From: Carcharhinus longimanus
Lineage: Eukaryota
Reading direction: 5' to 3'
Length of the DNA: 64,000 nt
NCBI GenBank assembly: GCA_030264375.1
Contig: JASCQW010000168.1
Span: forward strand, 10,989,500-11,053,499
In this document: positions 27,501-61,843 of the stretch, in pieces
How positions within the stretch are numbered: the stretch's first letter is position 1
Layout of the letters: each line of letters begins with the position of its first letter
Translations under genes and position numbers: made by a program
The notes under the pieces: generated by a model
Seen by the model: only the letters and a program-made list of their open reading frames with translations
What the model was told of the DNA's origin: nothing
Databases searched by the model: none

Positions 27501-30500
27501 TTTGGTGTCATCAGTAAATTTGGAAATATTACAACTGGCCCCAAATCATTTAAATACATTGTGAACAGCTGTGGACCTAACAATGATCCATGCAGACAAG
27601 TAACAGCCTACCATCCTGAAAATGATGCATTTATTCCTATTCTCTGCTTTCTGCCTGTTATTGATCTTAATTGCATCATATTCTTTGGATGTGGAACTTC
27701 CATGATGGCTTTCATCTTCTTTGGTGCTTTATGTAGCCCTTTGTTATTGACAACATGGCTCAATATTGCACTGGAGTTCAGGAAAAGTCAGGTTTTTCTT
27801 TCTTGGCATGCAGGTTATGTACTAGAAGACATTACTGCATTGCTTCTAAGTTGTCAAATATTTCTGGGCACTATACCAGTAATCAAAATATCAAGTTACC
27901 ATTGTACACTGGGTAAACCACCAAAAATTTGGCCCACTGATTGCTGAAATAACACAGATGATTCCAAAGGGTAATTGTTTGTACCGGAAAGGGCCTTTAT
28001 GTATAACAATGGTGAGCAATGGCTGTGATTTGGTTGTGACTTTCATTTGCTGATAAGTTCGGGATAGGTCGATTTTACTGAACTTCTACCCTCCTAATAG
28101 GCCAGCAAACAGATCCTCAATCTGTGGAAGTGGATACTGATCCGCATCGGATTAATGGTCATCTTAAAATTCCCACAAATGCGAACTACACCATCCTGTT
28201 TCATGACAGGCACTATTGATGCAGCCCAGTCACTCATGGTAACAGGTTCCAAAACACCAGTGTTGGAGACTCACTAACTCCGATTCAACCTTTGGATGAA
28301 CTGCATATGGTACCGTTTTCTCCTTGAGGCTTTCTGGTTGGCTATTTGACTTGATTTTGAGTTTCACTTGCATTCCTTACATTGAGTCAAGTGTTTCTTT
28401 GAATACACTCATATCTGTTCAAGGTGTGCTGAAGGTTGGTCTTTGCATCGACCAATAAGTTTACAGTTCTCCAGTCCAGCTTGATCTTCTCCAGCCAAGG
28501 TTGTCCAAAGAGAGCCAGGAAGTTTCCTGAGATCACGTGAAGAGGCAGCTCTGCAATTTGTCCACTCAGCTCCACCCTGACAATGTAGCCTTTCAATGGC
28601 ACAATTTCTTTCGTATATGTACTTAAGATTGCACTTGCTGGCTTTAAAGGAAAGATGCTTTAATATCTGTTGATATGTCATCTCTTGGATTAAGGATATG
28701 GTGGCTCCTGTGTCAACTTCCATTTTGACTGGTTGTCCACTCAGCGTAGGGATTACCCAAAATTGGTCTGATTCACCTTGAACCGATAACAGTTAGCGCC
28801 TCACCAAGCTCCTGAAATGTCTTTTCCCGACTGCTGTCATTCTCGACAGGCAGGAGTTCAGTAAAAATGACCTATCCCGAACTTATCTGCAAATGAAGGT
28901 CACAACCAAATCACAGCCACTGCTCACCACTGTTACCCATAAAGGCCCTTTCCAGTACAAACAATTATCCTTTGGAATCACCTGTGTTACTTCAGCAATC
29001 AATGGACCAAATTTTTTATTGGTTTACTCAGTGTACAATGCTAACTTGATATTTTGATTACTGGTACAGTGCCCAGAAATATTTGACAATTTAGAAGCAA
29101 TGCTGTAACGTCTTCTAGTACATAGCCTGCATGCCAAGAAAGAAAAATCTGACTTTTCCTGAACTTCAGTGCAATATTGAGCCATGTTGTCAATAACAAA
29201 GGGCTACATAAAGCACCAAAGAAGATGAAAGCCATCATGGAAGCTCCACATCCAAAGAAAATGATGCAATTAAGATCAATAACAGACAGAAAGCAGAGAA
29301 ATTCTTTTTACTGAATTTTTCTCGTCTTGTGTGTGTCCGGGTTCTTTTACTGACCGTTCATTTCAGGGAACCCTGATCCCTTCCAATAAACTTCTGCAAA
29401 GTGGCCACCTTTGCCACAATCCTTGTACTGGCTGTCCTTGCTCCAACACAGTAACAAGTCTCACAACATTACGCTACCAAATAAACCTGTTGGACTTTAA
29501 CCCGGTGTTGTGAGACTTCTTACTGTGTTTACCCCAGCCCATTGCTGGCATCTCCACATCTTGCTCCAACAGTCAGCCGGTGACTGGCCCTATGGCCCAT
29601 TCTGGTACACTGACGGTATGCTTGCAGTTGAACAGGCTTCCTCTGGGTGGAGCCCATCCTATGCACTCTCATATGCCTGTTCCCAACTGTGAACCCTCTC
29701 CAGCTGCAAGTTCCATCAAGATGTACTTTCAGAGCTGTTTTTAAATTTAATGCGAGAACAAACATCACTGGATTGCCTCATTTCATAACCTACAGACCAA
29801 GCAATCGCATAGAGGATAATCCAATGATTCACCAAACTCACAACATTATGCAAGATGCTTTAAAGCTCCTATAAACTGTGAAATGTTCTTGTTCTCTGAT
29901 TGATTTCCTCGATGAAACCTGAACTGTTCTGTGATAACCAGCAACTTCGGCGACTAATGTTCATCAAGGGTTTTGATACCAGGCTTCTTTGACTGGACCA
30001 AATTGAGAATTTAAATAGCGCTAAGAAAGGTTGGGACCACAAGTTCTGTTGGAATATTATTCATCTGTTCATAATACTGAAATCTCTCCACATAGAAGCT
30101 CCAACATTCAGTTTCCTGATCAAAAGAGTTTATGGTGCTGAAGTGACCACTGCCATTTTCCTTGCAGGCTTGAGGAACTATGCAGTACTCCCCTCAGTGG
30201 CTTCCCTTATGTTTAGCTAGATGGATGATTTGAGAAATTAACCAGATTTCACTGCAGACTAACTCCCAATTTAAACACCATACAGAAATTACTGCCAGAA
30301 TTTTTCTTCTTCCTCCTTGCTGCGTGCAAGCTCCATGGCTTCTATTCAATGCGGCACACTGTCGACAAAGGCCCAACCGCTTTATTTTCAAGTAAGAATT
30401 TGTGTTTTTGTTTCTCTTCCTTGTAGCTCACTGGCACACTCGACATTGCCAAGTTTCTCTCTGTCGCTGAACCTAGTCAACCTCTGAATTGAATCACTGA

Positions 30501-33500
30501 TGTTCAAGCTCCTCACGAAGTTGCAGTTTTAAAAGTAGGGCAAAATTTTTTTTAACCCATGTTTTCTCGATCCTCCCTCATTACAAGCTTCATTGTTATA
30601 TCATGTGAGGCTGGGGTACAATAACTGGTACGACTCAATAACTGGAAGGGCAGCATGGTGGCACACTGCATTGCTGCCTCGCAGCGCCAGGAACCTGGAT
30701 TCAATTCTAACCTGGGGTGACTGTCTGTGTGGAGTTTGCATCTTCTCTTGGAGGGTTTCCTCCAAGTGCTCCAGTTTCATGCTACACTCCAAAGATGTGC
30801 AGGCTCAGTGGATTAGCCATGGCAAATGTGTGGGGTTACTGGGTGGAAGGGAGAACCTGTGTGGGATGCCCTTTCAGACAGTTGGTGCAGACTCAATGAA
30901 CTAGATGGCCTCTTTCTGCACTGCAGGGATTCTATGGTTCTATTGAGGAGGTATGCAAGGGTTTTAGCAGAAACAGCAAACAGATTTCATTTAATGGATG
31001 GTCATAGTGAGGGTTCAATAAGCCATTTGCCGGAAGCTTGTGGACACCCGGATGACATCATGGAGTGATCACATGACAGTCCAAAAGGCCATGCCACCGC
31101 AAAATAACTCCCCAAATACATAACAGCATTCATATTCCTTTTGTTTTCCTAACCAGTTTCTTGGACATCCTTTGCTGGGTTCCAAATTGCTCCCAGCTCT
31201 TTCAGACAGTTCCTGCAGGTGCAATGAGCCAAGTGGCCTCCAGTTTCACTGTAGGGATTCTATGTTTCTATGGCTTACCACTTTTTCTAGTATCCTTATA
31301 AACTACTTCCTATGATTTCATACAATTATTAACTTATTTTGTTAACCACAAATGGTTTACCTTTCCCTTTAGGAATTTGTGCCTTAATTATGTTCTATTC
31401 TGATCCTATTTAATGCTTGCCTATGCTTCATTTGTCTTCTATTTTTGTTTTTTCTTCCTTCTACCAGTTTTGCCTGCGTCAAACCTCACAGTTTCCCATC
31501 CACTGATCTAATTTAAACATTCCACAAAAGCACTCGTAAATTTCCCTGCAAAGATCAGTTCCTAGTCCTGCTAAGATGCAGCCTGTCCATCTTGTACAGG
31601 TCCCCCCGCCCCAAAGTCAGTCCCAACATCTCAGGAATCTGAAGACCTACCTTCTACACAAGTTCTCCAATCATGTGTTCAATTGCTCAATTTTCCTATT
31701 TGCATATTCACAAGCACTTGGGGCAGGGAGTAGTCCTGAGATTACTGCTTTAGAGGTCCTGCTTTTCAATCTCCTTCCTAGCTTCCCGAAATCTGTTTCC
31801 TCTTTCTAATCAAATCATTAGTATGAACATGGACCAGGACCTCTGGCTGTTCACTCTCATCTAGAACAATGTCCTATAACCAATCCATTAGAGGAGATGC
31901 AGTGTATTTTGCACATGATTGAAGGCACATATTTTAATGTTATACAGTATCCACATACTGGTTTTTAAAAACAAATCCAGTAAAATCAGAAAATAACAAA
32001 CTCAAAGAACAAAAACAGGCCCTTCTGCCCAACGAGCCCGTGCCGCCACCTTAACACCACCAGTTCCCCCCTCCACCCATGACCCTTGTCTAATGTTTTA
32101 TGGCCATCCACATTGAGGGAAACTAATTTAGGAACAATTTATTACTGCCAATCAGCCTAATAGCACATCTTTGGGGTGTGGGAGGAAACCGGAGCACCCG
32201 GAGAAAACCCNNNNNNNNNNNNNNNNNNNNNNNNNNNNNNNNNNNNNNNNNNNNNNNNNNNNNNNNNNNNNNNNNNNNNNNNNNNNNNNNNNNNNNNNNN
32301 NNNNNNNNNNATATTCTATACCCCTTCCTATAAAGGCTAACATACCATAGGCTTTCTTCACCACACTCTCCACTTGCACTGCCACCTCAAGTGTCAATAA
32401 CAAGTTTTTAAATAATTGTATGTCTTGGGAAGTTTTAATAATGTCTGGCTAAAATCTAGAAGGGCTGCATTTTATTCAGGCAACAAATCAGTCATGTATT
32501 TCAATGCTGTAATAAACTATTTAAGTTTCAGTCTATTTGATATGACCAGTGAACAAAGCAATCAGAGCAAATCATTTGACTCCAATTTCTATCACTGTTG
32601 TAGGTTAACATAAAAGTCAACTTCTGTCTCCATTCCTTTATGTTGGATACTTATATTTTCAGTTAGAAAGGTAATACAATCATTGGACCAAAACCACAAA
32701 AAATCTAACCAAGCACAATCATAGCAATGGATTAAATTATGCTTTCCAATACTTCAGAAGCAAAAGAGTTCTCATAAACATAGACCGATAAGTAGTGAAA
32801 AGGATAGTCAAAGGAACGGTTGGATCAATTAGCGGTGAAAAAGGAGGGGTCCTTGTGGAGGCAACAAGCATGGCTGAGATACAAAAGGAATATGGGGTGC
32901 CTTGCAGAGTCTTCTCGGCAGAGGATGCTGTCAATGTCACAGCGGAAACGGGGATTGTAGAGATATTGGATGGGATAATAATAGGTAAAAGAGGTACTTA
33001 AAAGCTGGGCAGTCTACGAAGTAGGAAAGTTACCTGATCCTAGGGTAGACAGAGAAACCGTTTTAAGGCAGGTGTCAAAAATGACGACACAAGGATAAAA
33101 AATATACAGCACCTAATGATGATCTGGACTGCAATGACTGAAAAGATGATGGAAGCAGATTCATAGTACCCAGAGGGAATTGGGTAAATCTTTGAAGTGG
33201 GAAAATGTTCATGGTTAGGAGGAAAGAGGAAAGAGATGAGACTAACTGGATAGACCTGCAAAGAGCTGACACAGTAAACAATGCCAAAAGACTTGCTCTG
33301 TGCTGTTTCGTTTATGATAATGATGTTGAAAGACAAATAAAATAATGTTGACCAGATACACAGGAAGGGTAATTACACTCCATTGACTCATCTTCCACTG
33401 TATTCTAGCACACATTAATCTGTTTACTATCTGCACTATTTTCATTTACTTCTCCACTCCTAAACATTTTTCCCTCATCACCTTCTTTAAGGTATGAATC

Positions 33501-61349: not shown

Positions 61350-61843
61350 CATTTATTTCTCAACCAATTATCAACATGTTGAGGTCTTCTCCAATTCTGT
61401 CTTTTTGCTAATATCTTGTGTAGGTGTTGAATGATTTCTGGATGTGCAAACTAGGAGCTGGAGTAGGACATTCAGCCCTTTTGAGCCTGCTCCCACATTT
61501 AATAAGATTATGACTGATGTGATTGTGCCCTCAACTCCACATTCCAACCTACCCCAGATAGACAACATTGACAGACCCTCCTTCATCTGCTCCATCAGTG
61601 AGCTTCCCAACTATTCAGCTTAATTAGTTAGATATGAATTGCCCTTGTATCCATGTTTCATCTTTAATCAAACTTGACAAAGCCCTCACCCACTAATTGT
61701 AAATTGTATTAACTTCTCCACAAATGATGTCAAAATCATGGATCTCCTTTTTTCCCCTCGCCTTTAATGTCTTGGAATGGAAATCATTTGATCCTGCAGA
61801 TTTGTCGACGTTAGGTCCCATTATTTTCTTTACTCTTTCTTTC

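What the first reader, a model, noticed from the sequence alone, without database searches (positions are those of the whole stretch)
29437..61362. Family of short fold-back retroelements with head-to-head minimal hammerhead ribozymes and 12-13-bp TSDs
Seen: three independent insertions of one family (29449-29559 +, 41758-41969 -, 61116-61349 +). Each has its own TSD (12, 13, 13 bp), is a hairpin with a one-sided tail (..accccagtccaa.gccagcatctccacat), and has no ORF or poly(A). The reconstructed arm reads ucac-c-CUGAUGA-aggagcagcgcucc-GAA-AGCU-H-gug: hammerhead core, stem II hairpin, palindromic AGCU in place of helix III, and cac/gug stem I. Established: Penelope-like elements carry minimal type I hammerheads in their terminal repeats that are thought to work as dimers, and often have inverted termini. 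Inference: this is a non-autonomous unit made only of two inverted ribozyme termini and mobilised in trans, i.e. a retrozyme-like or MITE-mimicking retroelement. No single copy here has an intact core.
Basis: partly seen in the sequence, partly recalled or inferred. Interest (0 to 1): 0.7.

Follow-up and report, generated by a model that had tools for sequence, protein, structure and literature searches.

The report
Penelope stumps, one ADAR-edited hairpin
The small hairpin insertions are the usual stump-sized ends of a Penelope-like jumping gene in a shark or ray, but one carries a one-strand A-to-G scar suggesting that its hairpin RNA was edited and then written back into the genome as a whole.

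Summary
The three insertions, their 12/13/13-bp TSDs, hairpins and one-sided tails are real; a fourth copy (38031-38089) has one arm and no tail. The host is an elasmobranch. The arm is the pLTR of a Neptune-type Penelope-like element (PLE): family-wide reads restore the minimal hammerhead core, and the tail ends on the start codon of an RT/GIY-YIG ORF found in shark proteins. An inverted arm plus a 30-40-bp tail is the known PLE insertion pattern, and lengths and joints vary, so this is no fixed two-ribozyme unit. In a hairpin the two ribozymes pair with each other and cannot form a dimer. That strand is the element's sense strand, opposite to the host gene and the surrounding LINE. This fits ADAR editing of a hairpin RNA that was then reverse-transcribed and inserted whole. 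It rests on one copy, unchecked against raw reads.

The parts
29437..29448 (.). Copy A left TSD (12 bp; right copy 29560-29571); its last 4 nt also match the start of the tail (possible priming microhomology)
29449..29468 (-). Copy A inverted arm, only 20 nt, starting at the tail-less end of the pLTR
29470..29559 (+). Copy A direct arm (cut off downstream of the hammerhead) plus 34-nt tail 29526-29559
38018..38102 (-). Copy D (not in the finding): single tail-less arm 38031-38089 between 13-bp direct repeats 38018-38030 and 38090-38102 (11-13 bp after microhomology); its 5' end lies at or within 1 nt of the predicted hammerhead cut site
   Evidence: (E 7.8e-15 with a profile that includes D)
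41745..41757 (.). Copy B left TSD (13 bp; right copy 41970-41982)
41758..41880 (-). Copy B direct arm with decayed hammerhead and 34-nt tail (41758-41791)
41882..41969 (+). Copy B inverted, tail-less arm with decayed hammerhead; ordinary symmetric ageing (G·T 7, A·C 6)
61103..61115 (.). Copy C left TSD (13 bp; right copy 61350-61362)
61116..61210 (-). Copy C inverted arm; holds the only near-complete core (CUGAUGA..GAAA, 61206-61178); 10 A>G changes when read on the + strand
61211..61306 (+). Copy C direct arm; 9 A>G changes on the + strand, including the three A of the GAAA core
61307..61349 (+). Copy C tail, 43 nt, no A>G; ATG at 61342-61344 is the start codon of the partner's RT/GIY-YIG ORF (translated tail HLHIM matches P0127 residues 68-72, just before its ORF)
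60571..61450 (-). Decayed LINE RT-region remnant (CR1/L2-like, label recalled) into which C inserted; reads on the - strand; limits approximate
   Evidence: tblastx E 9e-21 to other LINE remnants of the window
375..42194 (-). Host gene vinculin, exon 2 (42111-42194) onward; exon 1 not found in the window, so C probably lies in intron 1; A, B and D are intronic

Best explanation
The repeats are short insertion products of a very abundant Neptune-type PLE of elasmobranchs. SHOWN: pLTR arm with a minimal hammerhead consensus; two discrete 3' ends 34-43 nt apart; tail ending on the start codon of an RT/GIY-YIG ORF; 12-13-bp TSDs; variable arm lengths and joints. INFERRED from known PLE biochemistry: the endonuclease nicks both strands 12-13 nt apart, and each nick primes cDNA at one of two internal start sites (tail end, tail-less end). 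The cDNAs are short, and joining two of them head to head gives a hairpin with a one-sided tail (A, B); one cDNA alone gives D. Many cDNAs stop just 5' of hammerhead helix I (B, C, family reads), perhaps the RNA's 5' end. D stops at the predicted cut site, perhaps a self-cleaved template. Copy C is second-generation. An existing fold-back was transcribed in the element's sense direction and folded into a 95-bp duplex. ADAR deaminated over a third of its adenosines, and PLE protein acting in trans primed at the tail and inserted the whole hairpin with a new 13-bp TSD, fixing inosines as G in both arms (pattern shown; enzyme and route inferred).
For: Family; 38,294, 35,506 and 26,831 contigs laid in three DNA runs; loose ends read ..CACCTGATGAAGGA in 4 of 4 runs and ..CCGAAAGCTAGTGG in 3 of 4; contigs leave the element at the tail-less end (41968-41969, X1: 449 and 411) and at the tail end (41758, X1: 419, consensus continuing with the ATG); 8 different skip joints among the 15 shown, each at depth 16-55 in X1 against 13-15 in the flanks. 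Partner: P0127 (Heptranchias gene model) has the translated tail directly before an ORF start homologous to P0126 (Mustelus) and to the 881-aa P0129 (RVT_1 E 3.8e-10, DKG, C-x4-C-x2-C linker, GIY-YIG-like end, Atlas TM 0.86). Literature: inverted 5'-truncated copy and 30-40-bp tail (PMC8557442); 8-10-bp TSDs, tail overlapping the ORF start (PMC3846280); two RT start sites, both strands cut (PMC11167929). Copy C: G·T 22 vs A·C 3 in 95 paired columns, p 1.6e-4; A>G 19 of 51 vs T>C 2 of 53 (p 1.6e-5) and C>T 3 of 43 (p 5e-4); 10 left, 9 right; 3 of 3 UAG changed; 0 of 6 tail A; 22 other inverted pairs give 99:134; B gives 7:6. Host gene and enclosing LINE both read on the opposite strand.
Against: The editing claim rests on 1 of 2 long hairpins and was found post hoc. 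With each A run counted once the skew falls to 16:3, p 0.004. ADAR's 5'-G avoidance is not seen (3 of 9 vs 16 of 45, p 1.0). No raw reads were laid on C, and the assembly has 15 N runs (nearest 6.4 kb away). Ancestral letters rest on six other arms, and P0122. The link to the partner is a short peptide overlap in gene models of other species; no DNA of a full element was seen. At the two CpG sites of the core region only 37-40% of X1 depth reads G (table 3). B and C fold back at the same site, which a fixed master would also give. No empty site was seen.
Confidence: 0.68

Rival explanations
1. One reading: a dedicated non-autonomous fold-back family, two inverted ribozyme termini copied as a fixed unit by PLE protein, with the ribozymes part of its cycle.
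For: B and C, from two subfamilies, fold back within 1 nt of the same site 5' of helix I. C appears to have moved as a whole hairpin. pLTRs alone can mobilise passengers in trans (PMC3846280).
Against: A (20-nt arm, no ribozyme) and D (one arm) do not fit. Family reads show many low-depth joints, and the letters upstream of the direct arm do not read as the mirror arm (tables 5, 5c, 7). In the hairpin 5 of 7 CUGAUGA letters pair with probability above 0.9; dimers need same-strand tandem copies (PMC4209133). B and C arms each follow their own subfamily on both sides.
Confidence: 0.1
2. All four copies are plain first-generation PLE stumps, and the A>G cluster of C is a sequencing or assembly error, or chance.
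For: Single copy; hairpins are hard to sequence (own knowledge); gapped assembly; 13 of 19 sites have G on their 3' side; neighbour preference not significant.
Against: A phasing error should also turn C and T into a neighbouring G: 0 of 24 did, against 9 of 18 and 13 of 21 A. The documented systematic error is G>A in AGA context (PMC2873906). Both arms are hit with one polarity and the tail is not.
Confidence: 0.12
3. C is ADAR-edited but reached its state another way: RT jumped across the end of an intermolecular sense/antisense duplex, or an edited cDNA overwrote a hairpin already inserted at this locus.
For: Antisense PLE templates have been proposed (PMC3846280). The outer 25 bp of the left arm is unedited (0 of 9 vs 10 of 18) and both ends are exact, as partial overwriting would give.
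Against: The known transcripts here (vinculin, the LINE remnant) run on the other strand. A hairpin with a 3-nt loop is the simplest duplex. The unedited outer part also fits separate priming at the tail-less site.
Confidence: 0.09
4. A MITE or other DNA-transposon derivative with terminal inverted repeats.
For: Hairpin shape, no ORF, high copy number.
Against: One-sided tail, variable 12-13-bp TSDs, single-arm copy D, hammerhead core and an RT/GIY-YIG partner.
Confidence: 0.01

Closest known systems
Insertion units of EN+ Penelope-like elements: pLTR, adjacent inverted 5'-truncated copy, 30-40-bp tail (Arkhipova et al. 2013 PMC3846280; Craig et al. 2021 PMC8557442; Frangieh et al. 2024 PMC11167929)
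   Same: Head-to-head inverted arm, one-sided 34-nt tail overlapping the ORF start, long TSDs, strong 5' truncation, palindromic junction.
   Different: These copies are so short that they hold only pLTR sequence. TSDs are 12-13 bp against the 8-10 bp quoted for Adineta. Copy C shows one RNA carrying both arms, which the passages read do not describe.
[quoted passage not shown]
   Same: CUGANGA-H, stem II, GAAA-N-N-U-H, short helix I; that paper already notes dual min-HHRs 100-700 bp apart on opposite strands; the turtle row of its Fig. S3 has the same GAAA-G-C-U-H core and AU-rich 3' flank.
   Different: No shark or ray term in the one supplement file that could be searched; all copies in this window are inactive at sequence level.
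Non-LTR retrozymes (Li, Clavereau, Pollet 2026, bioRxiv 10.64898/2026.07.22.740005)
   Same: Non-coding, pLTR-derived, type I hammerhead, present in the one chondrichthyan sampled there.
   Different: Defined by head-to-tail tandem units with a ribozyme in consecutive units; these copies are inverted or single and dispersed.
ADAR hyper-editing of an inverted repeat fixed by reverse transcription in avian retroviruses (Hajjar and Linial 1995; Felder et al. 1994; seen only as cited in PMC12925331)
   Same: A>G in a large share (nearly 50% there, 37% here) of adenosines of an inverted repeat.
   Different: Here a PLE-derived hairpin in a vertebrate genome assembly, with its own TSD. Lizard Penelope RNA is known to be heavily edited (PMC5625713), but as RNA.

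Membership tests
EN+ PLE insertion (Neptune type) | Terminus shared with an ORF coding RT plus C-terminal GIY-YIG endonuclease | tested here: met
   Translated tail precedes the ORF start in P0127; homologue P0129 has RVT_1 and a GIY-YIG-like C-terminus. Protein-level link in other species; no full DNA element seen; no ORF remnant in the window.
EN+ PLE insertion (Neptune type) | Minimal hammerhead motif in the pLTR | tested here: met
   Family loose-end consensus, C left arm, descriptor of PMC4209133. Sequence level only.
EN+ PLE insertion (Neptune type) | Optional one-sided 30-40-bp tail (two RT start sites) reaching into the ORF start | tested here: met
   34 nt in A and B, 43 nt in C, absent in D and in 3 of 3 inverted arms; two end clusters family-wide.
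EN+ PLE insertion (Neptune type) | Inverted, 5'-truncated copy joined head to head; variable truncation; variable-length TSD | tested here: met
   3 of 4 copies inverted; lengths 111/212/234/about 60; TSD 12/13/13/11-13; varied joints.
EN+ PLE insertion (Neptune type) | Neptune clade placement (Zn-finger-like linker between RT and EN; RT phylogeny) | tested here: inconclusive
   Cys cluster at P0129 residue 743 fits the linker named for Neptune and Nematis in PMC8557442; no tree was built.
EN+ PLE insertion (Neptune type) | Ribozyme self-cleavage | not testable with these tools
   Only hint: the 5' end of D lies at the predicted cut site, one copy.
Non-LTR retrozyme | Head-to-tail tandem units with a complete hammerhead in at least two consecutive units | tested here: not met
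   0 of 4 copies are tandem; definition.
Non-LTR retrozyme | Circular RNA intermediate | not testable with these tools
   Only contigs were laid.
MITE | Inverted repeats at both very ends, fixed short TSD, transposase partner | tested here: not met
   One-sided tail, 12-13-bp TSD, RT partner.
Fixed non-autonomous fold-back family | Uniform length and joint among copies | tested here: not met
   Four lengths in four copies; 8 different skip joints among 15 shown; but B and C share the fold-back site.
ADAR hyper-edited RNA fixed by reverse transcription (copy C) | Cluster of A>G on one strand, in both arms of a duplex, absent from unpaired parts | tested here: met
   19 of 51 A; 10 left, 9 right; 0 of 6 in the tail (small n); controls.
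ADAR hyper-edited RNA fixed by reverse transcription (copy C) | Neighbour preference (5' G depleted; UAG favoured) | tested here: inconclusive
   5' G 3 of 9 vs 16 of 45, p 1.0; UAG 3 of 3; the 5' G rule from PMC5625713; UAG preference recalled.
ADAR hyper-edited RNA fixed by reverse transcription (copy C) | Changes present in genomic DNA reads | not tested

The most novel reading that the evidence does not exclude
PLE fold-back stumps form a recurring second-generation mobile class: hairpin RNAs that PLE protein re-inserts in trans, often after ADAR hyper-editing. The edits enter the germ line, and their polarity relative to the tail records which RNA strand templated each arm. Shark genomes would then hold many such records, and the open question of how PLE inverted ends are made could be answered by counting.
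Probability: 0.35. Interest if true: 0.72.

Novelty: new variant of a known kind. Interest (0 to 1): 0.5.

Why it matters
The family itself is ordinary PLE debris. Copy C matters because papers on PLEs call the origin of their inverted ends undefined (PMC8557442) and weigh self-priming on antisense templates (PMC3846280). Editing polarity separates the routes. Self-priming on a cDNA leaves the arms complementary. Twin priming on edited sense RNA gives T>C in the inverted arm. One RNA with both arms gives A>G in both, as in C. With tens of thousands of distinct contigs carrying the family per run, a genome-wide count is feasible. It would also be a case of ADAR edits inherited through a retroelement, and the editing here destroyed both ribozyme cores. 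My four searches for such a case listed none for PLEs. That covers only an open-access library; Repbase and Dfam could not be searched.

Tried and rejected
No whole genome is held. Rfam gave no hammerhead hit in the window at E<=1, so the ribozyme call rests on the published descriptor. Pattern scans of viral contigs found 0. Metagenome and GTDB scans gave 76 and 68 exact 19-mer hits; none of the 144 loci aligned beyond 41 nt or better than E 0.63, so they were taken as chance. No RNA holder was listed for copy B; run X20 is RNA only by guess, so expression is not claimed. No empty site was seen in three DNA runs. A word-based search with the translated tail found nothing; an HMMER scan found 5 proteins, of which P0121 and P0125 were dropped as unrelated repeats. 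P0129 has no sequence match in the PDB, and local Pfam did not call its GIY-YIG domain. No PLE ORF remnant lies in the window, and 177 minus-strand ORFs between 35.7 and 64 kb gave only vinculin exons. Rejected for C: carriage as a passenger in the enclosing LINE's RNA or in vinculin pre-mRNA (wrong strand); selection for G·U pairs (should admit C>T as readily, but 3 of 43 vs 19 of 51); phasing error. A motif search of papers found 0; shark + Penelope + hammerhead listed 1 paper, where 'shark' names only the shape.

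
Full report
OBSERVATION. Of 20,000 random intervals of the window, 19,998 had a flanking repeat of 9 bp or less. Each copy has an inverted arm and a tail on one side only: 34 nt in A and B, 43 nt in C. A fourth copy, D (38031-38089, - strand), has one arm, no tail and 13-bp flanking repeats. 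A profile of the arms found no further copy better than E 0.8. Rfam called no hammerhead. A descriptor scan gave 6 loose hits in the window, only one of them in the family: C's inverted arm, where U16.1 and stem II are broken. So no copy has an intact core, as stated.

SETTING. The window is intronic DNA of vinculin on the - strand. One exon is 99-100% identical to shark and skate vinculins, against 92-97% for other vertebrates listed. Exon 2 lies at 42111-42194 and exon 1 was not found, so C is probably in intron 1. C interrupts a decayed LINE remnant that also reads on the - strand.

FAMILY-WIDE EVIDENCE. I laid 4 of 24 listed runs on copy B at 80% likeness. 38,294, 35,506 and 26,831 contigs of three DNA runs fell on it; this shows great abundance but is no copy number. 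Loose-end consensus restores the CUGAUGA half of the core in 4 of 4 runs and the GAAA-G-C-U-H half in 3 of 4. At the two CpG sites only 37-40% of X1 depth reads G among contigs chosen for likeness to B. The motif is the published minimal hammerhead (PMC4209133). Contigs leave the element at two places, the tail-less end and the tail end, where many go on with an ATG. Among 15 joints shown of 157, 8 are different fold-back skips, each at depth 16-55 in X1 against 13-15 in the flanks. Among 12 joint sequences shown of 108, 6 reach the ribozyme, and 5 of those start the direct arm just 5' of helix I whatever the length of the inverted arm. Upstream of that point the consensus breaks up and does not read as the mirror arm. 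B's flanks run into its ends in three runs of different labels, so B is old; no empty site appeared.

AUTONOMOUS PARTNER. A profile of the translated arm and tail hit 5 of 1.84 billion proteins; 3 were translations of the repeat. One, P0124, joins the arm to an ORF fragment, and that fragment retrieved 4 longer proteins. In P0127 (a Heptranchias gene model) the translated tail runs straight into an ORF start homologous to the first residues of P0126 (Mustelus) and P0129. P0129 has 881 aa, an RT domain (E 3.8e-10), the DKG motif, a Cys cluster at 743 and a GIY-YIG-like end (Atlas TM 0.86). Hence the ATG at 61342 is the start codon of a PLE ORF and the arm is its pLTR, as in Adineta and Anolis PLEs where pLTR and tail overlap the ORF start. 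The linker points to Neptune; no tree was built. The link is a short peptide overlap in other species.

HOW THE STUMPS ARISE. An adjacent inverted 5'-truncated copy and a one-sided 30-40-bp tail are typical of PLE insertions (PMC8557442), with TSDs of 8-10 bp in Adineta. The Anolis protein nicks and extends both strands and starts at two internal sites that bracket the tail. I infer two nicks 12-13 nt apart, two short cDNAs primed at the two sites, and a head-to-head join. A (20-nt arm) and D (one arm) fit this and do not fit a fixed unit. Opposite-strand ribozyme pairs 100-700 bp apart were already noted in 2014. In one transcript they pair with each other: 5 of 7 core letters have pairing probability above 0.9, so the tandem dimer cannot form. 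Two leads remain. B and C, from two subfamilies, turn within 1 nt of the same site, and D starts at the predicted cut site.

COPY C. Its two arms agree in only 67 of 95 paired columns, and the mismatches are lopsided: 22 G·T against 3 A·C on the + strand (p 1.6e-4). DNA mutation should be symmetric, and it is in B (7:6) and in 22 other inverted pairs of the window (99:134). Read against the partner arm, the other copies, and P0122, 19 of the 22 are A>G: 19 of 51 A, against T>C 2 of 53 and C>T 3 of 43. Ten lie in the left arm and nine in the right. All 3 UAG are changed, and none of 6 conserved tail A. A cruder automatic polarisation gave 15 of 54 against 3 of 47, p 0.008. A phasing error would also convert C and T next to G, but 0 of 24 were converted in either direction. 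The documented systematic trace error is G>A (PMC2873906).

WHAT C IMPLIES. The changed strand is the one with the tail at its 3' end, opposite to vinculin and to the enclosing LINE, so neither host transcript explains it. cDNA self-priming would leave the arms complementary, and twin priming on edited sense RNA would give T>C in the inverted arm. A>G in both arms needs one cDNA copied from both strands of an edited duplex, most simply a hairpin transcript of an earlier fold-back, primed at its tail and inserted with its own 13-bp TSD. The outer 25 bp of the left arm is unedited (0 of 9 against 10 of 18), which may mark separate priming at the tail-less site; this is a post hoc lead. Variants that I cannot exclude are a jump across a sense/antisense duplex, or later overwriting of the locus by an edited cDNA. 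The nearest precedent is an avian retroviral inverted repeat with nearly half its A changed (cited in PMC12925331; the original was not read). Lizard Penelope RNA is heavily edited.

COMPARISON AND NOVELTY. The family passes the PLE tests that could be run and fails those for retrozymes and MITEs. Searches listed no report of an edited PLE hairpin fixed in DNA; searches listed no description of this shark family. The library is open-access only, Repbase and Dfam were out of reach, one supplement file of PMC4209133 could not be searched, and the 2026 preprint's supplements were not seen. Unchecked notes of this scan read similar shark repeats as ordinary PLE stumps, and one reports an ADAR-edited hairpin inside a LINE in another genome; I saw these after my own tests and count them as leads only.

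PAPERS SEEN. PMC4209133: text parts 1-2 of 4 and supplement file 2, parts 1-2 of 3. PMC11167929: parts 1-2 of 4 and supplement 1. PMC8557442: passages and section 14. PMC3846280: passages and Discussion. bioRxiv 10.64898/2026.07.22.740005: part 1 of 5, passages, section 14. Passages only: PMC9977147, PMC12925331, PMC5625713, PMC8969392, PMC6155905, PMC2873906. Recalled, from no call: the labels CR1/L2 for the LINE remnant, ADAR's liking for UAG, hammerhead numbering, and the phasing-error model.

VERDICT. Observation confirmed. Family: ordinary Neptune-type PLE stumps (about 0.9). Copy C: ADAR-edited duplex written into DNA (about 0.8 that the edits are real, about 0.7 for re-insertion as a whole hairpin). 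Interest 0.5.

Noticed in passing
window 38018-38102: Fourth family copy D, single arm without tail; its 5' end coincides with the predicted hammerhead cut site within 1 nt.
   Followed up: partly
window 41875-41890 and 61205-61215: B and C, of two subfamilies, fold back at the same site just 5' of helix I; five of six family joints that reach the ribozyme start there too, hinting at the template's 5' end.
   Followed up: partly
window 61116-61138: The outer 25 bp of C's left arm is free of A>G (0 of 9) while the inner part has 10 of 18.
   Followed up: partly
window 59848-59935: U2 snRNA-like fragment on the + strand, 36.8 bits, under Rfam's gathering score of 46.
   Followed up: no
window 27640-28090 and 28849-29300: A 452-bp inverted pair, 93% identical, flanking a weak retroviral-type protease remnant at 28409-28792; it ends about 140 bp before copy A.
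   Followed up: no
P0124 (ENA contig of 630 nt): PLE ORF fragment joined directly to the arm and tail in the same orientation: an internally deleted element or a nested insertion.
   Followed up: partly
joint 41969 to 41758 in run X1: Two contigs go back 212 nt from the tail-less end to the tail end, with unknown letters between; possible tandem units elsewhere in the family.
   Followed up: no
window 60571-61450: Decayed LINE RT remnant on the - strand that hosts copy C; another LINE-like stretch reads on + at about 60400-60540.
   Followed up: partly
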